From a virus (Duplodnaviria; Heunggongvirae; Uroviricota; Caudoviricetes), in IMG/VR virus record IMGVR_UViG_2909298281_000005: a DNA stretch of 47,442 nt; one strand, given 5' to 3'. The notes beneath the pieces were generated by a model, which made no database searches, was not told the DNA's origin, and worked only from the letters and a program-made list of their open reading frames with translations. The position numbers and the translations under genes are program-made. Every line of letters begins with the position of its first letter. Position 1 is the stretch's first letter. Positions 1 through 39,582 of this stretch are shown here, piece after piece.

Positions 1-1284
1 TTACAGACTTCTGGAAGGTTGCACAGCTCTTACAACACGCGGTTGATCTTCCGCAGCGTCTTCCAGCGCACTTAAATCACGGTCTTTCACTTCTGGCATT
101 TTCAGCGCAGAGATTAAACCAATCACTGAATATGCCATGATCATAATGGCGATCGGATACCAGGATTCCGTCATGGTGCAGAAAATACCCGCCAGGATAG
201 GACCAAAACCGGAAGCGATAAGACCACCAATTTCTTTAGAAATGGCCATCCGGGTAAAGCGGTTTTTACAGCCGAACATTTCTGCCATGGTAATGTTTTC
301 CAGAGCAAATAATCCCAGCACCGCACAGTTATGAATCACAATCAGTGCAACCATAATGGTGCTCGGGGCATAGCTTTTATCTACAATGATAGAAAGCATT
401 GGCCATGCCAGCACAATCGCGGAGGTATTCATAATAATATACGGGATCCGGCGACCAATTTTATCGGATAACCAACCAAGGAACGGAATGGTCATAAAGC
501 CGAGAATCGAACTAATCATCAATGCATCTGTTGGAATTGCTTTGTTAAACAATAACGTCTGCACTAAATAGCCTGCAAGGAAAGTCTGAATTAACCCGGA
601 GTTACCCGCCTGACCAAAACGCAGCCCTGTTGCCAGCCAGAAGGATTTGCTCTGGAACATGCTACCAGCAGGTGCAGGTTTTGCTGTGGGTTGGTTGCTG
701 TCATTAACCTTCTCAAAGACCGGGCTTTCTTTCAGATTCATACGTAACCAGATAGCAAAGACCATCACGACAACGCTCGCCAGGAACGGTATACGCCATC
801 CCCACGCCAGCAGTTCCTCTTTACTGAGAATGAAGAACATAAAGGCCCAGATTGCCGTTGCGCTCAAGGTTCCGCAGTTAGTTCCCATAGCTACAAATGA
901 GGAGATAATTCCGCGCTTACCTTTTGGTGCATATTCCGCCAGCATCGTACCGGCACCGGAAATTTCCGCACCTGCACCCAACCCCTGAATAATACGCAGC
1001 GTCACCAGCAAGATGGGGGCAAAAACACCAATCTGTGCATAGGTCGGTAACACACCAATTAAGGTGGTACAGATCCCCATCATGGTGATGGTAATAAAGA
1101 GCACTTTTTTACGCCCTATTCTGTCGCCCATTTTGCCGAAAATAAATGCTCCGACAATACGCGCCACATAACCTGCACCGTAGGTTCCCATTGCCAAAAT
1201 TAACGCCATTGCCGTTGATGATTCAGGAAAAAATATTTCATGAAACACTAACGCTGCGCCGAGCGAATATAACTGGAAATCCAT
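1..1284 (-). CDS. ydfJ: MFS family metabolite:H+ symporter, YdfJ-like; stop codon at 1-3; N-terminus looks shortened (begins inside the conserved YDF..Y...FFP region)
   Basis: 427-aa ORF with multiple hydrophobic segments and MFS-like motifs (GKMGDRIGRK, ...GWLSDKIGRR); ydfJ is recalled as the chromosomal gene flanking the Qin prophage in E. coli K-12. Confidence 0.75.
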   Translation of the reverse strand: MDFQLYSLGAALVFHEIFFPESSTAMALILAMGTYGAGYVARIVGAFIFGKMGDRIGRKKVLFITITMMGICTTLIGVLPTYAQIGVFAPILLVTLRIIQGLGAGAEISGAGTMLAEYAPKGKRGIISSFVAMGTNCGTLSATAIWAFMFFILSKEELLAWGWRIPFLASVVVMVFAIWLRMNLKESPVFEKVNDSNQPTAKPAPAGSMFQSKSFWLATGLRFGQAGNSGLIQTFLAGYLVQTLLFNKAIPTDALMISSILGFMTIPFLGWLSDKIGRRIPYIIMNTSAIVLAWPMLSIIVDKSYAPSTIMVALIVIHNCAVLGLFALENITMAEMFGCKNRFTRMAISKEIGGLIASGFGPILAGIFCTMTESWYPIAIMIMAYSVIGLISALKMPEVKDRDLSALEDAAEDQPRVVRAVQPSRSL

Positions 1285-19158: not shown

Positions 19159-19434
19159 TTACTCAATAAAGATCATTGGCTTACCGTTAAAACGTTCATG
19201 CCGTGTGACCGTCCATTGTTGTCCGTCATAAACAACGCGATCCCCGCGCCGTGGGCGGTATCCCGAAGAAAACACCACCAGAGAGACCGCAGGTCCGGAC
19301 AGAGCATTCAGCTCTGCCAGTGTTTCTCCCGGGATCACAGTCATATCGACATCATTAATCGAGGCTGTCTTTCCCATCTTTCTGACCGTGATAGCATCCA
19401 TACGCGCTGCCAGCCGGGAAAAGGGATCAGACAT
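19159..19434 (-). CDS. head-tail joining protein, FII-like (putative)
   Basis: 91-aa ORF at the FII position; loose resemblance only. Confidence 0.4.
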   Translation of the reverse strand: MSDPFSRLAARMDAITVRKMGKTASINDVDMTVIPGETLAELNALSGPAVSLVVFSSGYRPRRGDRVVYDGQQWTVTRHERFNGKPMIFIE

Positions 19435-19750
19435 TGAGTTTTACCGGCACTTCTTCTGCACTGGTTCCGGCATCTGCCCAGACAACCCCGACCAGCGGAT
19501 CAGAGCCGCTGTTAGTCAGCTGAACTTTTCCGGACTTCAGATAAACCTTCTTACCCGTTTTCATGTCATCCGTTTTCAGCTTAGGCAGCATAAACACACC
19601 TTCGGTCATGCCGTCGCCTGTTTCACCCTGTGGAATATCGGTCAGCGCCACCGCAAAAACATCGCCCACCTGCACCAGATCTCCGCTGCTGATGGCTGCA
19701 CTGGCAACAATCGCCACCGTTTTTCCTTCTTCTACAAAATTCTTTGCCAT
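19427..19750 (-). CDS. hypothetical head-associated protein (FI position)
   Basis: 108-aa ORF from ATG at 19750 with GGAGA upstream; follows the capsid-gene terminator. Confidence 0.4.
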   Translation of the reverse strand: MAKNFVEEGKTVAIVASAAISSGDLVQVGDVFAVALTDIPQGETGDGMTEGVFMLPKLKTDDMKTGKKVYLKSGKVQLTNSGSDPLVGVVWADAGTSAEEVPVKLNV

Positions 19751-19836: not shown

Positions 19837-21794
19837 TTACGCCGTACATTTCACCAGACCGCGGTGATCAACTGGCGCGACACCGGCGTCAATACGCACT
19901 TTCGTTGTCACGCCATCCACACTGAATCCCTCCATCTGATCAATATATGGCGTATCCACACCGTTGAGATAAGCCACTTCAATCGTATCGGAGCCTTTTG
20001 ACGCAGCCAGGTAGAAGGTGGTCTGGCTGTTATCATCAAGACGAGGCTCTGCAATAACGGTCGCAAAATCTTTCACCGGGTTAATAATACCGGCGTTAAT
20101 GTCAGCCCCCTTGACACTTGAGGAGCGAATGACCTGGTTAGCAACAGACTCCATCGCCGTCGGTACCAGTACGAACGCAGGACGAATATTCAGATGACGC
20201 TCCCCCTCTTTCTGAACGCGCATCAACTGGCGGGCTTTATCCAGCGATGCCACGTCCATTGCAGCGCTCTCCAGTACGTTTGCATGTTTCGCTTTATCGA
20301 ACAGACTTACATTATCTGTGGAGATTTTCGGGTTAGACGTCAGAATGGCATAAACCAGATCGGCAATAGTGGATTTCGCCGCACGGCCCAGTTTCATCGG
20401 GACATCGGTCAGCATATTCAGATCATCATTGATAATGGCCTGACGGGTGATACTGAACAGCTCGCCATAGGTCGCCAGTGCAATAGTGGCCTGTTTATCT
20501 CCGGTGGTGACGTATTTATATTCCGCCCCTTCACGCACCTGACGCAGAGCACTGAAGCCCCCATACCCACACGATGGGCAATTTTAAAATCAGACAACTG
20601 ACCTTTCCGCGTCCACTGTTCATAGGTTTCAGGGGCATCTTCCCAGCCCTGCAGAATGGCTTTGTTCGCAACATCCAGCAGAATATTACCGAAGTCAGAC
20701 GTACTGTGTGTGAACGCCGCACCGACCATCTGCATCGGGTTATAACTGGAAACACCAATACCCCGTTCAGTCAGTGACATACGGGCATATTCACGCAGGG
20801 TCATCCCGTTGTAGACATTATCACGTTCGGTTTTTTCAAATCCGGCACGCGCCATCAGCGCCTGGCGAATCCCGTCCCCCACAAAATTACCGTTACCGGC
20901 ATAAATATGAGCCGGGGTATTTTTATTGGATGGCGTGGACTCGCGCCCCATCTCGTTCAACAGCTTTTCACGGGCCTGCTCCAGCGAACATTCAGGATCG
21001 GCAAGACACTGGGCCTGCAGCGTCTGATAACGCCCGCCAAACATGGCAAACAGATCATTAATACCGTTTACACGCGCTTTTTGCTCTGCCAGTACCTGCG
21101 CACGGATACTGTTTTCATCCACCACGGGTGCTGCTGCCTGCACTGGCGTCCGGGAGGCTGCAGGTTCATCATCCTGTACGCGTGGAGCACTGTTGCGTGG
21201 CGGAGTAATCATGTTTCGAATGGATTCCGGCATCTTTTTAAATTCCTCTGTACGTTTTGACTGAATACATGCCATTGCCTTAACGGCTGGTGTCACCTGA
21301 TCAGCAAATCCCTGTGCCAGACATTCGGCACCGGACATCCAGGTCTCATCCGCCAGCATGGCAGCAATTTCATCGGTGGTTTTCCCGGTTTTCTGTGCAT
21401 AAGCGGGTAACAGAACCGCCTCAACTTTATCGAGCAGGTCGGCATAGGTGCGCATGTCCTCCGCATCACCGCCCGTAAAGCCAAATGGTTTATGAATCAT
21501 CATGAAGGAGTTTTCCGGCATAATGACCGGGTTTCCCACCATCGCAATGACCGACGCCATTGACGCCGCCACACCGTCGACATAAACGGTAATGGACGCA
21601 CCATGTGTTTTCAGTGCATTAAAAATGGCGATGCCTTCAAAGACATCGCCACCCGGTGAATTAATATGGAGATTAATGTGGGTGATATCGCCCAGTGCAT
21701 TCAGATCACTGATAAACTGCTTCGCTGTAACACCCCAGAAACCAATCTCGTCATAAATATAAATATCCGCGTCACTCTGGTGACCTGCCTGCAT
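19837..21794 (-). CDS. prohead protease (ClpP-like) and major capsid protein, apparently one fused reading frame interrupted by a 1-nt frame break at a C5 run near 20558-20562
   Basis: ClpP-like motifs (...HINSPGGDVFEGIAIFNA...VDGVAASMASVIAMVG) in the upstream part; capsid-like C-terminal part; two track ORFs (20418..22055 and 19837..20538) overlap in different frames and would join as ...KIAHRVGMGGFSALRQVREGAEYKY... if the homopolymer had one more base. Confidence 0.65.
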
Positions 21795-21807
21795 CCTGAA
21801 CCAGGAA

Positions 21808-23316
21808 TTATTCTTCGGACTGGTCGTCGGTGTGCTGCGGCTCCTGTCGTTTCGTTGCGGCACTGCTGCCTCCTTTATCACTGGCCGGATCGGTATCAAA
21901 TACCAGATCCAGCTTGCGGTTTTCATCAATTTCGGCCTTGCGCCGACGTTTGACATCATCCGGATTACGACCACCTGCACGTACCCAGTCTGATTCTGTC
22001 GCCGCTCCACCACGAATCTGGATTTTCCAGGCCTCAGCCTCCTTAACAGGGTCAATCCACGGCATCACCGGTCCGGAATACACCGCGGTATACAGTGAAG
22101 AAAGGTCAAGATCGCGGGGTAGCCTGATAACACCGGATGCCACAGCCTGTTTCAGCCAGGCACGATACATCGGACGGGTGACGGCACCAATAAACCAGTC
22201 CTGCAGGATCAGGTAGCCATCAGTGGATTCAACCAGCTCCTGACGCTGGGCGCTGTAAGTGCCGTTATAGTTGCGCGCTGTACTGGAAAAACTCAGACGA
22301 CTGCCCGCCGCCACGGCACGCAACTGACCATTACGAAAAGTTTCAAGGTTAGGATTTGGGCGATCCGACTTCACCATTCCGATTTCTTCGCCGGGTTTCA
22401 GATCATCGTAAATAATGCCTGGCTGAATGGTAAGCTCGCGTTCCTTATCCTTGCTGCCATTACCATCCGCTTCATAGCTCTGCCCGTCGCCTTTCCGGAT
22501 GTACATCCCCAGAGCAGCGGCGATCCTTGCTGCAGTCAGCTCAGAATCTTCATACTCTTTCAGGGCACTGAGGCGGATCAGCACACCGGACAATAAAGAC
22601 GTCCCGCGCATCTGGTGCAGACGGCGAACAAATTTAAGATGCAGCATTCGCTCTGCATCCACTTCTTTGGTTTCCATCTGCCGTCCGGATACGGGACGGC
22701 TTTTATACACCAGATATTTTTCGGGACGCCCCCAGTCATCAACAAACACGCCCTGATTCAGCCTGTTGCTCTCATCACTGGTCATGGGAATAAAGTCCGG
22801 CTCGAGCGCCTCCAGCCAGAAATGAACACCGGCAGAAGGCGTCAGGCTGTTTATGCGCCCGGAAACCATCTGGGCAAACACCTCACCATCGCGCAGCCAG
22901 GTACGAAGCATCAGACGTTCCAGCATCGGACGGGTAAACTGCCCGGTGACTTCCGGGCTGACAGACCATTCACTCCATCGGGTGCGAATCTCCGCAGCCA
23001 GGTCACGGGCAATGGCCCCATTGCGTAATACCGGATGTGGCTCGACAATAATCCCGTTTTTCCCCACCACCCGTTCTTCCAGCTTGTCAAATACACCAAT
23101 AACCAGATCGTGGTTGTTATCAAGGTAACGGGCCTGCTCACGTAACGACACGGCCCCGTACTGGCTTAACTGGTCGGCAGTTCGGTTCTCCCGTCGGGCT
23201 TTGTGTGTCCGCGTCGTTTTTACGGCCTCATAAGCCTGGATCACCGCACGGGAACGCAGCCTTGCCGCTTTCCATCCTGGTGAAAAAACGCCAATCACAT
23301 CATCAAGAATTGCCAT
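21808..23316 (-). CDS. portal protein
   Basis: About 502 aa from ATG at 23316; located between W-like gene and protease as in lambda B. Confidence 0.8.
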   Translation of the reverse strand: MAILDDVIGVFSPGWKAARLRSRAVIQAYEAVKTTRTHKARRENRTADQLSQYGAVSLREQARYLDNNHDLVIGVFDKLEERVVGKNGIIVEPHPVLRNGAIARDLAAEIRTRWSEWSVSPEVTGQFTRPMLERLMLRTWLRDGEVFAQMVSGRINSLTPSAGVHFWLEALEPDFIPMTSDESNRLNQGVFVDDWGRPEKYLVYKSRPVSGRQMETKEVDAERMLHLKFVRRLHQMRGTSLLSGVLIRLSALKEYEDSELTAARIAAALGMYIRKGDGQSYEADGNGSKDKERELTIQPGIIYDDLKPGEEIGMVKSDRPNPNLETFRNGQLRAVAAGSRLSFSSTARNYNGTYSAQRQELVESTDGYLILQDWFIGAVTRPMYRAWLKQAVASGVIRLPRDLDLSSLYTAVYSGPVMPWIDPVKEAEAWKIQIRGGAATESDWVRAGGRNPDDVKRRRKAEIDENRKLDLVFDTDPASDKGGSSAATKRQEPQHTDDQSEE

Positions 23317-26172: not shown

Positions 26173-26469
26173 CTGGCAGGTGAAAATCAGGTTTATTTAT
26201 ATATTTCAATTAATTGCAAACTAGTCTAATGACAGGGAGAAAAAAATATTGTACAGCTGAAGAGAGAAATAACTTTTAATTATCAATAAATTACCAAACA
26301 TGCTGCCGCCGCCATGGAAATGCAAAAACTAGCCTTTTTCCGCGACGCTCCCGCCCCGTGGCAGGACACACTGCCGGGAGGACCCATTAAAAACTGCTAA
26401 GCTGGGCTCGTTATGGGTAACCGGCTCATTTAAACCGTCTGGTCTGTTTCCTCCGGCTCTACAAAAATA

Positions 26470-27147
26470 ATGTCCATCATTTTTAATGGACACTATCGTA
26501 TGAAACACCGGACCTGGATCACTGAAGCTTTACGTCTTCACTTTGAAGAACATTTACCCCGGGTTGTGGCCGGGCGTCGCCTGGGTGTACCAAAATCAAC
26601 AGTTTGTAGTATGTTCGTGCGCTTTCGGAGAGCTGGCCTTTCGTGGCCTTTGCCCGCAGGCATGTCGGAGCAGGAACTTGATGCCTGCCTTTACGGACAA
26701 TTTTCCACGGTACCAGTCGTACGTCCTGAAAGCACCGTTATATCCGAAGCCCCCGTGGTAAAAAAACGTCCCCGGCGGCCCAACTTCCCTTATGAGTTTA
26801 AAATCGCCTTAGTGGAGCAGTCACTGCAGCCCGGAGCCTGTGTGGCGCAGATCGCCCGGGAAAACGGAATCAACGATAACCTGCTCTTCAACTGGCGCCA
26901 TCAATACCGGAAAGGTGGCCTGCTGCCTTCCGGAAAAAATATGCCGGCACTGCTTCCCGTGACGTTAACGCCGGAGCCGGATAATAAAATCCCGGCCCCC
27001 GCACAGGAACCAGAGCAGATAAATACACCGTCCGACAGTCTGTGTTGTGAGCTGGTTCTGCCGGCCGGAACTCTCAGGCTTAAAGGTAAACTGACGCCGG
27101 CGTTATTACAGACACTTATCCGCGAAATAAAAGGGAGCAGCCACTGA
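26470..27147 (+). CDS. IS66 accessory protein (orf1/TnpA-like); true start may be internal
   Basis: First ORF of the IS; HTH-like segments. Confidence 0.65.
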   Translation: MSIIFNGHYRMKHRTWITEALRLHFEEHLPRVVAGRRLGVPKSTVCSMFVRFRRAGLSWPLPAGMSEQELDACLYGQFSTVPVVRPESTVISEAPVVKKRPRRPNFPYEFKIALVEQSLQPGACVAQIARENGINDNLLFNWRHQYRKGGLLPSGKNMPALLPVTLTPEPDNKIPAPAQEPEQINTPSDSLCCELVLPAGTLRLKGKLTPALLQTLIREIKGSSH

Positions 27148-27494
27148 TGATATCTCTCCCTGCAGGTTCGCGTATCTGGCTGGTTGCAGGTATCACCGAT
27201 ATGCGAAATGGCTTTAACGGCCTGGCATCAAAAGTTCAGAACGTCCTGAAGGATGACCCGTTCTCCGGACACCTGTTCATCTTCCGCGGACGCCGGGGTG
27301 ACCAGATAAAAGTGTTGTGGGCTGACAGTGACGGACTGTGCCTCTTCACCAAACGCCTGGAGCGGGGCCGCTTCGTCTGGCCAGTCACCCGTGACGGCAA
27401 GGTGCACCTTACTCCGGCTCAGTTATCCATGCTTCTTGAAGGTATCAACTGGAAGCACCCGAAACGAACGGAACGCGCTGGAATCCGCATATAA
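27147..27494 (+). CDS. IS66 orf2 (TnpB-like)
   Basis: 115-aa ORF MISLPAGSRIWLVAGITDMRNGFNGL... typical of IS66 orf2. Confidence 0.85.
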   Translation: MISLPAGSRIWLVAGITDMRNGFNGLASKVQNVLKDDPFSGHLFIFRGRRGDQIKVLWADSDGLCLFTKRLERGRFVWPVTRDGKVHLTPAQLSMLLEGINWKHPKRTERAGIRI

Positions 27495-27513
27495 CCCGTT
27501 GTAAAGTGAGGAT

Positions 27514-29085
27514 ATGGACACCTCACTTGCTCATGAGAACGCCCGCCTGCGGGCACTGTTGCAGACGCAACAGGACACCATCCGCCAGATGGCTGAATAC
27601 AACCGCCTGCTCTCACAGCGGGTGGCGGCTTATGCTTCCGAAATCAACCGGCTGAAGGCGCTGGTTGCGAAACTGCAACGTATGCAGTTCGGTAAAAGCT
27701 CAGAAAAACTTCGTGCAAAAACCGAACGACAGATACAGGAAGCACAGGAGCGAATCAGCGCACTTCAGGAAGAAATGGCGGAAACGCTGGGTGAGCAATA
27801 TGACCCGGTACTGCCATCCGCCCTGCGCCAGTCTTCAGCCCGTAAACCGTTACCGGCCTCACTTCCCCGTGAAACCCGGGTTATCCGGCCGGAAGAGGAA
27901 TGCTGTCCTGCCTGTGGTGGTGAACTCAGTTCTCTGGGATGTGATGTGTCAGAGCAACTGGAGCTTATCAGCAGCGCCTTTAAGGTTATCGAAACACAAC
28001 GTCCGAAACTGGCCTGTTGCCGGTGCGACCATATCGTGCAGGCACCAGTACCTTCAAAACCCATTGCACGCAGTTATGCCGGAGCGGGGCTTCTTGCCCA
28101 TGTTGTCAGCGGGAAATATGCAGACCATCTGCCGTTATACCGCCAGTCAGAAATATACCGTCGTCAGGGAGTGGAGCTGAGCCGTGCCACACTGGGGCGC
28201 TGGACAGGTGCTGTTGCTGAACTGCTGGAGCCGCTGTATGACGTCCTGCGCCAGTATGTGCTGATGCCCGGTAAAGTCCATGCTGATGATATCCCCGTCC
28301 CGGTCCAGGAGCCGGGCAGCGGTAAAACCCGGACAGCCCGGCTGTGGGTCTACGTCCGTGATGACCGTAACGCCGGTTCACAGATGCCCCCGGCGGTCTG
28401 GTTCGCGTACAGTCCGGACCGGAAAGGTATCCATCCACAAAATCACCTGGCCGGTTACAGCGGTGTGCTTCAGGCCGATGCTTACGGTGGTTACCGGGCG
28501 TTATACGAATCCGGCAGAATAACGGAAGCCGCGTGTATGGCTCATGCCCGGAGAAAAATCCACGATGTGCATGCAAGAGCGCCCACCTACATCACCACGG
28601 AAGCCCTGCAGCGTATCGGTGAACTGTATGCCATCGAGGCAGAGGTCCGGGGCTGTTCAGCAGAACAGCGTCTGGCGGCAAGAAAAGCCAGAGCCGCGCC
28701 ACTGATGCAGTCACTGTATGACTGGATACAGCAACAGATGAAAACACTGTCGCGTCACTCAGATACGGCAAAAGCGTTCGCATACCTGCTGAAACAGTGG
28801 GATGCACTGAACGTGTACTGCAGTAATGGCTGGGTGGAAATCGACAACAACATCGCAGAGAACGCCTTACGGGGAGTGGCCGTAGGCCGGAAAAACTGGA
28901 TGTTCGCGGGTTCCGACAGCGGTGGTGAACATGCGGCGGTGTTGTACTCGCTGATCGGCACATGCCGTCTGAACAATGTGGAGCCAGAAAAGTGGCTGCG
29001 TTACGTCATTGAACATATCCAGGACTGGCCGGCAAACCGGGTACGCGATCTGTTGCCCTGGAAAGTTGATCTGAGCTCTCAGTAA
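27514..29085 (+). CDS. IS66 family transposase (orf3)
   Basis: 523-aa ORF with N-terminal coiled-coil, CPACGG zinc-finger-like motif and DDE-type core. Confidence 0.9.
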
Positions 29086-29448
29086 ATATCAATACGGTTC
29101 TGACGAGTCGCTTACCGTTATGGCAACAATTCCATACGAAGTTTTATAAGTAAGAAGTTGCATGCCATCAGGCACCACCGCTGCTGATTACGACCATCAA
29201 TGTGAACCACAACCAGCGCATCGGGTTACAGATAATTCATATGCTCAACGAGCATAAAGTTCAGAACGTTTAACTTCAGGTGCTTTGTTTTAGCCATACC
29301 GTCCGTAACAACATGATGGAAGCGGGTACTTAGAGAACACTATGGATAGAAACTTGCATTACTAATCTCACAATTTATTCATACAGTTATATGATAAATA
29401 TATTATTAGTTATAACATGTTGAAAATTCATAAAGGAGAATTACCTGT

Positions 29449-34516: not shown

Positions 34517-34593
34517 TGGCGCGCTGTACTGGATTCGAACCAGTGACCGATTGCTTAGAAGGCAATTGCTCTGTCCGGCTGAGCTAACAACGC
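34517..34593 (-). tRNA. tRNA-Arg (anticodon UCU)
   Basis: Cloverleaf readable: acceptor GCGTTGT/ACAGCGC, anticodon loop CTTCTAA, T-arm GGTTCGAATCC, 3-prime CCA encoded. Confidence 0.8.
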
Positions 34594-34627: not shown

Positions 34628-34640
34628 CCCCCCCCCCCCC
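34628..34640. repeat. homopolymer tract, about 13 C on plus strand (G on the phage coding strand) between the two tRNA genes
   Basis: Read directly from sequence and from the poly-Pro run in the overlapping antisense track ORF. Confidence 0.7.
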
Positions 34641-34701: not shown

Positions 34702-34777
34702 TGGTGGCCCTTGCTGGATTTGAACCAGCGACCTGGCGATTATGAGTCGCTCGCTCTCACCACTGAGCTAAAGGACC
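34702..34777 (-). tRNA. tRNA with anticodon CAU (Ile2/lysidine type or Met), ileX/ileZ-like
   Basis: Acceptor GGTCCTT/AAGGGCC, anticodon loop CTCATAA, T-arm GGTTCAAATCC, 3-prime CCA encoded; resembles E. coli ileX as recalled. Confidence 0.75.
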
Positions 34778-38887: not shown

Positions 38888-39582
38888 ATGTTAGAACCAC
38901 CAAAGAGTTATAATGAAATGTTGCCTATGCTCCATAAGGCGACTTTTATTACTACATTTATATTTTACCTATCATTAGTCATTTATGGCTACATGCCATT
39001 GGTTGGCATTAATGCCAAGTATATCCCCCCGTTAAAGACTACGAGGAATTTATTAAATGGATATTAACCTTTGGCATATTACCAATTGCATCTTCAGTTT
39101 TTTGGTCAGTAATTAGTGGAGCTTTAGATCTACATAATAATGTAGCAAAAATTATTGGAATAAGGAAGATGTGGGATAGTCATTTAATTATTAAACCATT
39201 AGCAAAAATTGCAGGCGTTACGAGAAAATTAACTACTGATGAATCTCACAAGGTAATGAGTAAACTGTATTACCCAGAAGTTAAAGAGTTAAAAGACAAA
39301 CATTACGTTGAACTTTTCTGGAACAAAGTTTATTACTTTTGGGTTTTCTTTGAACATACAGTAATCGCATTTGTTACTATTTTAATAATAAGTATCGCCA
39401 AATTAACAAATATATTCTCTGTTACTGGCTCTTTAATTAATCTTTGGTTGTGGATTATTTCTCTTGTCGCATTTGACTTCCTTATTTTCATAGCATCAGT
39501 TAAACCAAGAACAGAAAGCCAAGTAAGACAAATACCTGATAGCAAAATAAAAGAATTCTTTAACAATAACAATATTTTTTAA
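38888..39582 (+). CDS. predicted 4-TM membrane protein, reading frame broken at a C6 run (39025-39030); appears as two track ORFs
   Basis: Track ORFs 38876..39067 and 39169..39582 are in adjacent frames; the second frame is open and hydrophobic from 39013; adding one C restores about 231 aa; GGAGAG upstream of ATG 38888. Confidence 0.5.

What the first reader, a model, noticed from the sequence alone, without database searches (positions are those of the whole stretch)
19837..21794. Protease/capsid gene split by a single-base frame break in a C5 homopolymer
The ClpP-type protease frame and the capsid frame overlap by about 120 nt in different frames. Restoring one C in the run at 20558-20562 gives a continuous product ...FKIAHRVGMGGFSALRQVREGAEYKY.... 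Either the major capsid gene is inactivated (defective prophage) or this is a homopolymer sequencing error. A protease-scaffold-capsid fusion would itself differ from lambda C/Nu3/D/E.
Basis: seen in the sequence. Interest (0 to 1): 0.45.

Follow-up and report, generated by a model that had tools for sequence, protein, structure and literature searches.

The report
Frameshifted phage protease–capsid fusion gene
A well-known phage gene that encodes head protease, scaffold and capsid protein as one chain appears broken by one missing base in a run of six G's, which is most likely a sequencing error in this PacBio genome (or else a very recent inactivating mutation), so the finding is ordinary.

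Summary
On the minus strand, a C5 run at 20558-20562 (G5 in the coding sense) splits one gene, and adding one base gives a 652-aa protein (675 aa from the GTG start used in RefSeq). That protein matches NCBIfam NF045540, [quoted passage not shown], end to end. The fused architecture is already known from the Gifsy-2 "tripartite capsid gene" (Effantin 2010). It occurs intact in 16 cultured phages at >=99% identity.

Among complete E. coli genomes, 1,339 records carry the exact G6 82-mer and 5 carry G5; PGAP flags all five as frameshifted.

The window comes from E. coli D181 (CP024252.1). Its accession lies in a CDC block whose other members are described as PacBio-sequenced, and the record is absent from the RefSeq set.

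- Contigs sharing its rare terminase allele differ by 2 SNPs in 8.9 kb, and all have G6.
- A second gene in the window (38888-39582) is broken the same way (C7 to C6).
- No other net indels occur in about 43 kb of alignment.
- Control C6 runs show similar rates of minus-one alleles, so the site is not a special hotspot.

Best reading: homopolymer under-call (about 0.65). Rival: genuine recent slippage mutation that makes the prophage unable to build heads (about 0.3). Programmed frameshifting is very unlikely. Interest is low.

The parts
19837..21863 (-). ClpP-like prohead protease / scaffold / major capsid protein fusion gene, frameshifted as it stands.
   Evidence: The restored product matches NF045540 at 985 bits over profile 2-651/652. 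Near-identical genes are annotated as one 2028-nt CDS in L001 and as 'frameshifted' pseudogenes in L002-L006.
20558..20562 (-). C5 run (G5 in the coding sense). It is G6 in intact alleles, and this is the site of the 1-base shortfall.
   Evidence: Alignment to the intact allele places the only gap here.
21291..21728 (-). ClpP-type serine protease domain (residues 23-168, ATG numbering), with catalytic Ser78 in AASMA and His101 in MIHKP.
   Evidence: Pfam PF00574 at 4.6e-36, NF045542 at 217 bits, and alignment to ClpP 1y7o; residue positions.
20742..21290 (-). Central linker, presumed scaffold region (residues 169-351), rich in Ala, Arg and Glu.
   Evidence: It lies between the two Pfam domains; composition. 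The scaffold role is inferred by analogy with Gifsy-2 and was not tested here.
19849..20741 (-). Major capsid protein domain (residues 352-649 of the restored protein). It is interrupted after residue 412, so only about 61 of about 298 domain residues stay in frame with the protease.
   Evidence: Pfam PF25209 Phage_capsid_4 at 2.4e-55, residues 352-649; break point.
20418..20420 (-). Premature TGA that ends the shifted upstream frame.
19427..19750 (-). Capsid cement/decoration protein gene (DUF2190) immediately downstream.
   Evidence: Pfam PF09956 Phage_cement_2 at 1.4e-20; annotated as a DUF2190 family protein in relatives.
21808..23316 (-). Lambda-type portal gene immediately upstream. Its 3' end overlaps the GTG start of the fusion gene.
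   Evidence: Annotation in relatives and PF05136 in the called genes.
38888..39582 (+). A second gene in the same window with the same kind of lesion. The run at 39025-39030 is C6 here and C7 in relatives, which splits a 231-aa hypothetical membrane protein.
   Evidence: adding one C gives a protein identical to that of TCM_B_2. The C6 allele is in 3 of 146 complete genomes.

Best explanation
The locus is an ordinary Gifsy-2-type tripartite capsid gene of a lambdoid prophage in the ydfJ (Qin) site of E. coli D181. In the intact gene, one polypeptide carries an N-terminal ClpP-like serine protease, a central scaffold-like segment and a C-terminal major capsid protein domain (Pfam Phage_capsid_4; the HK97-like fold is expected from the family and was not modelled here). 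By analogy with Gifsy-2, the polyprotein assembles into a procapsid, the protease cuts away protease and scaffold, and a DUF2190 cement protein stabilises the shell. The apparent split is most likely not biological. It is a one-base under-call of a G6 homopolymer in a long-read assembly. The PacBio platform is inferred, and the lack of short-read polishing is my assumption. Shown: the gene family, the exact indel site, its rarity, its absence from the closest relatives, and a second identical-type lesion in the window. Inferred: the sequencing platform, and that the error lies in the consensus and not in the DNA.
For: 1. In 26.4 kb (332 SNPs) against Ec1117 and 16.8 kb (99.9% identity) against TCM_B_2, the only uncompensated indels are in G/C homopolymers. 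These are C6 to C5 at 20558, C7 to C6 at 39025, and C11 against C13 in an intergenic tract. Both coding ones are one-base contractions that break genes.
2. The window's exact large-terminase allele is on only 26 contigs. Of the 24 read, every place shown other than D181 (5 shown, standing for 23 contigs) has an intact 675-aa gene. L021 (plus 17 similar places) and L025 differ from the window by 2 SNPs plus this indel in 8.9 kb.
3. The source is CP024252.1, strain D181. Accessions on both sides of it in that block are described as 'PacBio sequenced by Smith et al.'. The record is absent from the RefSeq complete-genome set, while batch siblings NZ_CP024263, -269 and -273 are present.
4. The same G5 recurs on at least 5 different haplotypes. 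Record 08-00022 also carries a C6 to C5 deletion in the tape-measure gene of the same prophage.
5. Of the 8 G5 contigs examined in the wider collection, 6 have a second one-base homopolymer deletion elsewhere in the same gene, each at a different site (two share one). A further contig with G8 at the site (L014) has six homopolymer insertions.
6. The minus-one allele at 39025 is shared with F8111-1SC3 (CP024269), from the same batch.
7. From my own knowledge, residual PacBio RS II consensus errors are mainly one-base deletions in G/C homopolymers.
Against: No reads are available, so the call cannot be verified. Homopolymer slippage is also the commonest natural frameshift, and prophage structural genes are under relaxed selection in a lysogen. 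The D181 prophage has real private changes (an IS66 insertion and about 3 private SNPs in 11.4 kb), so some independent evolution did occur. The PacBio-only status of D181 is inferred from accession contiguity; the announcement paper could not be read. The reason for the record's absence from RefSeq is unknown. Two indels in 47 kb would be a high error rate for a well-polished assembly.
Confidence: 0.65

Rival explanations
1. This is a genuine, very recent replication-slippage deletion (G6 to G5) in the D181 prophage. It yields a 458/481-aa protease-scaffold fragment with a 46-aa nonsense tail and removes about 80% of the capsid domain from the polyprotein. The prophage can no longer build heads and is defective for particle production, while it may still excise, replicate and lyse.
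For: The lesion is in the deposited sequence. Natural slippage in G/C runs is common (established knowledge). The prophage carries a real IS66-family insertion with an 8-bp target duplication about 245 bp upstream of the small-terminase-like gene, which its closest relatives lack. That is consistent with a prophage that is drifting or decaying. PGAP-flagged G5 copies exist in five RefSeq genomes. One of them, CEC01302, also has a split portal gene.
Against: The closest relatives, only 2 SNPs away in 8.9 kb, all have G6. A second gene in the window has the identical type of lesion, and there are no indels of any other type. That is a platform-error signature more than a mutational spectrum. With so few private substitutions, two independent homopolymer deletions among about 9 G/C runs of 6 or more would need an unusually high indel rate (a rough estimate from remembered mutation-accumulation rates), unless the strain is a mutator.
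Confidence: 0.3
2. The G-run is a contingency (phase-variable) tract that reversibly switches capsid production on and off, with G5 as the OFF state, and this behaviour is maintained by selection.
For: The same one-base loss recurs on at least 5 haplotype backgrounds.
Against: Frequency at the capsid site is 5 of 1,825 records. Control C6 runs in tail genes of the same operon give 4 of 1,541 and 2 of 4,103, so there is no enrichment. Six bases is short for a contingency tract. All 16 cultured phages have G6. Most G5 contigs in the wider collection show other homopolymer errors.
Confidence: 0.02
3. The break is bypassed by a programmed -1 ribosomal frameshift or by transcriptional slippage on the G-run, giving both a protease-scaffold product and the full polyprotein from the G5 allele.
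For: A P-site tRNA-Gly could in principle re-pair from GGG to the overlapping GGG in AUG GGG GCU, and the -1 frame gives exactly ...GMGGFS... (read directly from the sequence).
Against: The site is not an X XXY YYZ heptamer: the A-site GCU would have to re-pair with GGC. The run is far shorter than known transcriptional-slippage tracts. About 99.7% of homologues and all cultured phages need no frameshift. The break lies inside the capsid domain, not at a domain boundary. A frameshift would also make less capsid protein than protease, which is the wrong stoichiometry.
Confidence: 0.01

Closest known systems
Salmonella phage Gifsy-2 tripartite capsid gene (Effantin et al. 2010, Virology 402:355; NC_010393.1, 'bacteriophage Clp protease involved in capsid processing')
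   Same: It is a single ORF encoding a ClpP-like protease, a scaffold-like segment and the major capsid protein. It matches at 69.8% amino-acid identity over 100% of the restored protein in one piece. A cement-protein gene follows it and a lambda-type portal gene precedes it. [quoted passage not shown]
   Different: It has a different host and about 30% sequence divergence. The window's copy carries a one-base gap that the Gifsy-2 gene does not. Processing sites and capsid geometry were not examined here.
NCBIfam NF045540 (scaf_prot_MCP1), 'ClpP-like prohead protease/major capsid protein fusion protein', and E. coli phages mEp460, cdtI, phi458, Tritos, Ayreon and HannyBb
   Same: The restored protein scores 985 bits against a cut-off of 475 and covers the full profile. 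It is 99.2-99.8% identical to the uninterrupted genes of 16 phage records. The exact restored 675-aa sequence is on 151 public contigs.
   Different: Only the one-base deletion, which PGAP would flag as 'frameshifted', as it does for five RefSeq genomes.
Phage lambda head genes C / Nu3 / D / E
   Same: The genome position is the same (after terminase and portal, before the tail genes). The logic is the same: protease, scaffold, decoration protein and major capsid protein acting in procapsid maturation (established knowledge).
   Different: Lambda uses nested C/Nu3 genes and a separate E gene. Here the protease is ClpP-like and is fused in one chain with scaffold and capsid protein. The capsid domain matches Pfam Phage_capsid_4 and weakly Mu-like_gpT; no lambda gpE family was among the Pfam hits.
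HK97 gp4 protease / gp5 capsid protein with its delta domain
   Same: The scaffold function is attached to the capsid protein N-terminus and removed by a phage protease (established knowledge). The Gifsy-2 paper's title says its pathway combines HK97 and lambda features.
   Different: The HK97 protease is a separate gene of the herpesvirus-assemblin-like family, not ClpP-like. HK97 uses covalent chainmail instead of a cement protein.

Membership tests
Gifsy-2-type tripartite capsid gene / NF045540 ClpP-like prohead protease-MCP fusion | Full-length match to the family profile above the curated cut-off | tested here: met
   The restored protein scores 985.3 bits against a cut-off of 475, covering profile positions 2-651 of 652. 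This holds only after adding one base. As deposited, the two pieces are 458/481 aa and 192-233 aa.
Gifsy-2-type tripartite capsid gene / NF045540 ClpP-like prohead protease-MCP fusion | N-terminal ClpP-like serine protease domain with catalytic Ser and His | tested here: met
   PF00574 at 4.6e-36 over residues 23-168, and NF045542 at 217 bits. Ser78 (AASMA) and His101 (MIHKP) align with the ClpP AASMG and MIHQP motifs of 1y7o. The third triad residue aligns as Glu/Asp and was not resolved.
Gifsy-2-type tripartite capsid gene / NF045540 ClpP-like prohead protease-MCP fusion | C-terminal major capsid protein domain in the same ORF | tested here: inconclusive
   PF25209 Phage_capsid_4 at 2.4e-55 over residues 352-649 of the restored protein. 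In the deposited sequence, however, the domain is cut after residue 412 by the frame break. Whether the real DNA is intact cannot be decided without reads.
Gifsy-2-type tripartite capsid gene / NF045540 ClpP-like prohead protease-MCP fusion | Central scaffold segment removed by autoproteolysis during maturation | not testable with these tools
   A 183-residue Ala/Arg/Glu-rich linker is present between the two domains. Its scaffold role and cleavage are inferred from Gifsy-2.
Gifsy-2-type tripartite capsid gene / NF045540 ClpP-like prohead protease-MCP fusion | Gene neighbourhood: lambda-type portal upstream, cement/decoration protein and Gifsy-2-family head-tail gene downstream | tested here: met
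   PF05136 portal, PF09956 cement protein, PF13856 'Gifsy-2' 91-aa protein, then Z, U and V tail genes.
Programmed -1 ribosomal frameshift site | Slippery X XXY YYZ heptamer, and conservation of the two-frame arrangement among homologues | tested here: not met
   The sequence is AUG GGG GCU, so A-site re-pairing fails. 1,339 records have the in-frame G6 against 5 with G5, and all cultured phages are in frame.
Phase-variable (contingency) homopolymer tract | Length-variant alleles enriched at this tract relative to comparable tracts | tested here: not met
   5 of 1,825 records here, against 4 of 1,541 (tape-measure C6) and 2 of 4,103 (gpK C6).

The most novel reading that the evidence does not exclude
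The G6 tract inside the capsid domain is a genuine recurrent slippage hotspot that repeatedly and independently disables head assembly in Qin-site lambdoid prophages. It might even do so reversibly, which would make it a simple route to prophage domestication. On this reading the D181 G5 allele is real and not a PacBio artefact.
Probability: 0.03. Interest if true: 0.35.

Novelty: already known. Interest (0 to 1): 0.06.

Why it matters
It matters little biologically. The gene family, its fused architecture and even this exact frameshift (flagged by PGAP in five RefSeq genomes) are already on record. The practical value is as a quality flag. The D181 assembly (CP024252.1) shows two one-base contractions of G/C homopolymers in 47 kb, so apparent pseudogenes in it should not be read as prophage decay without read support. 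If the lesion were real, it would mean only that this one prophage cannot make capsids.

Tried and rejected
1. I searched the 5.8-billion-protein collection with the out-of-frame tail to count G5 alleles. It returned only a few chimeric ORFs from noisy assemblies, because the truncated product is merged into the full-length 90% cluster. Exact-sequence look-ups replaced this approach.
2. I took the 134 contigs carrying the exact 233-aa C-terminal fragment as possible evidence that G5 is a real natural allele. I rejected that reading. Of the 10 places examined, 8 have G5, but 6 of those carry a second homopolymer deletion. One contig has G8 plus five other insertions, and one has G6 with a different lesion.
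3. I could not read Effantin 2010 or Smith 2018 directly, because neither is held. I relied on papers that cite them.
4. I considered a hotspot or phase-variation reading and rejected it on the control runs.
5. I considered programmed frameshifting and rejected it on sequence context and on conservation of the in-frame state.
6. I considered structure prediction to map the break on the capsid-protein fold but did not run it. The Pfam domain limits already place the break inside the domain, and the restored protein is not a sequence the tool would accept.
7. I looked for a lambda or mEp213 cos 12-mer (GGGCGGCGACCT, GGGCGGCGCGCT) and found no exact match. Only a cos-like GGGGCGGGAGCGTCGCGG sits near 26345-26365, and I did not pursue it.

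Full report
**Observation**

The genes in this part of the window are on the minus strand. The plus strand has exactly five C's at 20558-20562. The upstream frame starts at ATG 21794, or at GTG 21863 as annotated in near-identical RefSeq genes. It contains a ClpP-type protease and runs to TGA at 20418-20420. The downstream frame is open from GTG 20538 to TAA 19837-19839. The two ORFs overlap by 121 nt.

Adding one base to the run yields a continuous 652-aa protein (675 aa from the GTG) that reads ...FKIAHRVGMGGFSALRQVREGAEYKY.... The products diverge after residue 412. As deposited, the upstream product is 458 aa and ends in a 46-aa out-of-frame tail.

**What the gene is**

The restored protein matches NCBIfam NF045540, [quoted passage not shown], at 985 bits (cut-off 475) over profile positions 2-651 of 652. 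Pfam places CLP_protease at residues 23-168 and Phage_capsid_4 at 352-649, separated by a 183-residue Ala/Arg/Glu-rich linker. The ClpP catalytic Ser (AASMA, Ser78) and His (MIHKP, His101) are conserved in an alignment with ClpP structure 1y7o.

The next gene (19427-19750) is a Phage_cement_2/DUF2190 protein. Upstream lie a lambda-type portal and the large terminase. The frame break falls inside the capsid domain, not at a domain boundary. About 80% of that domain is disconnected from the rest of the polyprotein.

**The fusion is already known**

- Phage Gifsy-2 matches at 69.8% identity over the full length in one piece, and Fels-1 at 72.3%.
[quoted passage not shown] 2010, as cited in PMC12315714). 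It also describes a trimeric cement protein on the Gifsy-2 capsid (PMC8538268).
- Sixteen phage records carry an uninterrupted ORF at 99.2-99.8% identity. They include phi458, cdtI, Tritos, mEp460, Ayreon and HannyBb.
- The 90% cluster holds 8,230 member sequences, and the exact restored 675-aa sequence is on 151 contigs.

**How common the break is**

An 81-mer centred on the run with G5 is found exactly in 5 of 1,825 matching complete E. coli records. These are 08-00022, CRE10, CEC01302, LR-17-1 and NCTC9699. The 82-mer with G6 is exact in 1,339 records. PGAP annotates all five G5 copies as "frameshifted" pseudogenes of the same fusion gene.

The G5 copies, with the window included, sit on at least five haplotypes that differ by 4-20 SNPs. 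The base has therefore been lost, or miscalled, repeatedly.

The site is not special. Equivalent minus-one 81-mers for two C6 runs in tail genes of the same operon are exact in 4 of 1,541 records (tape measure) and 2 of 4,103 records (gpK). Record 08-00022 carries both the capsid and the tape-measure deletions.

**Source and quality of the window**

The window's 481-aa N-terminal fragment occurs once in the 15-billion-protein collection, on CP024252.1 (GCA_002741275.1, 4,891,230 bp), and that locus is identical to the window. CP024252 is E. coli D181 (O182:H21, ST4493).

Accessions on both sides of it in the same block are described as "PacBio sequenced by Smith et al.". I therefore infer, but could not confirm, that D181 is a PacBio assembly from that batch. 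That it had no short-read polishing is my assumption. The record is absent from the RefSeq complete-genome set (best match 98.7%; accession not found). Batch siblings NZ_CP024263, -269 and -273 are present. The reason for the absence is unknown to me, although a QC exclusion would fit.

The prophage sits in ydfJ, the Qin site.

**Error or mutation?**

- **Indel spectrum.** Against Ec1117 (26.4 kb, 332 SNPs), the C-run at 20558 is the only uncompensated indel. Against TCM_B_2 (16.8 kb, 99.9% identity), the only indels are C13 against C11 in an intergenic tract and C6 against C7 at 39025-39030.
- **A second broken gene.** The C6/C7 difference splits a second gene (38888-39582), which is 231 aa in the relative. 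Adding one C restores an identical protein. That C6 allele is in 3 of 146 complete genomes, including F8111-1SC3 (CP024269), which is from the same batch. So every net coding indel in about 43 kb is a one-base contraction of a G/C run of 6 or more.
- **Closest relatives are intact.** The window's exact large-terminase allele marks a narrow lineage of 26 contigs. Of the 24 read, every place shown other than D181 encodes an intact 675-aa gene. L021 (which stands for 18 contigs) and L025 differ from the window by 2 SNPs plus this indel in 8.9 kb.
- **The wider collection shows an error signature.** The exact 233-aa C-terminal fragment is on 134 contigs. Of the 10 places examined, 8 have G5. Six of those 8 have a second one-base homopolymer deletion elsewhere in the gene. 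One contig has G8 plus five other homopolymer insertions, and one has G6 with a different lesion. This pattern is typical of error-prone reads.
- **Background knowledge.** From my own knowledge, residual PacBio RS II consensus errors are mainly one-base deletions in G/C homopolymers. With only about 3 private SNPs in 11.4 kb, two natural homopolymer deletions among about 9 such runs would be unexpected in a non-mutator strain.

Against the error reading:

- Slippage is also the commonest natural frameshift.
- Prophage head genes are dispensable to the host.
- D181's prophage has a genuine private IS66-family insertion (26417-29115, 8-bp duplication CGTTATGG) that its relatives lack.

**Mechanistic alternatives**

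A programmed -1 frameshift is very unlikely:

- AUG GGG GCU is not a slippery heptamer.
- The in-frame state is conserved in about 99.7% of homologues and in all cultured phages.
- The break is inside a domain.
- Frameshifting would under-produce capsid protein relative to protease.

Phase variation is not supported by the control runs.

**Verdict**

The gene is a known Gifsy-2-type protease-scaffold-capsid fusion. The frame break is most likely a homopolymer under-call in the D181 assembly (about 0.65). Otherwise it is a very recent real slippage mutation that makes this prophage head-defective (about 0.3). Either way it is ordinary, and only reads or re-sequencing can settle which.

Noticed in passing
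window 38888-39582 (+), run at 39025-39030: A second gene, a 231-aa hypothetical membrane protein (WP_000892866.1 in strain TCM_B_2), is split by a one-base contraction of a C7 run to C6. Adding one C restores an identical protein. The C6 allele is in only 3 of 146 complete genomes, one of them from the same sequencing batch.
   Followed up: yes
window 26417-29115 (target duplications at 26409-26416 and 29116-29123): An IS66-family element (HTH_Tnp_1 ORF, TnpB_IS66 ORF and a 523-aa DDE_Tnp_IS66 transposase) has an 8-bp target duplication, CGTTATGG. It lies about 245 bp upstream of the DUF1441 small-terminase-like gene and about 55 bp from a cos-like sequence (GGGGCGGGAGCGTCGCGG on the minus strand, around 26345-26365). 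The closest relatives lack it. I did not determine whether it affects packaging.
   Followed up: partly
window 34628-34640: A C13 homopolymer lies in the spacer between two prophage tRNA genes: tRNA-Arg(tct) at 34517-34593 and a CAT-anticodon tRNA at 34702-34777. ARAGORN calls the latter tRNA-Met, while the near-identical relative annotates it as tRNA-Ile. The relative TCM_B_2 has C11 here, so the tract length varies or is unreliable.
   Followed up: partly
window 1-1284 and the whole window: The window starts in a truncated ydfJ gene. The element is a full-length lambdoid prophage at the K-12 Qin site, with tfaQ-like, Lom-like, J, tape-measure, head, lysis, Q-antiterminator, hokD, dicB and ydfA-D-type genes. 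It is in effect an un-decayed counterpart of the Qin remnant.
   Followed up: partly
L004 (NZ_CP013662.1, strain 08-00022): This RefSeq genome carries both the capsid G5 allele and a C6 to C5 frameshift in the tape-measure gene of the same prophage. That suggests homopolymer errors, or decay, affecting several genes there.
   Followed up: partly
L009-L018 (Logan/NCBI contigs carrying the 233-aa C-terminal fragment): Many short public contigs show the capsid G5 together with another one-base homopolymer deletion at varying positions in the same gene (reference positions 951, 984, 1028, 1220 and 1229). L014 shows six homopolymer insertions, including G8 at the site. These look like assemblies made from error-prone reads.
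   Followed up: partly
phage records H190 (VT1-Sakai, AP000400.1) and H215 (Pseudomonas phage PAN70, KJ959591.1): Homologous fusion genes are disrupted in other deposited phage or prophage records. In VT1-Sakai the cause is an IS629 insertion. In PAN70 the gene is annotated as disrupted and matched in two pieces.
   Followed up: no
L006 (NZ_AP026114.1, strain CEC01302), locus 1212-2793: In this G5-bearing genome the adjacent portal gene is also split into two CDSs, so that prophage copy has several lesions in its head genes.
   Followed up: no
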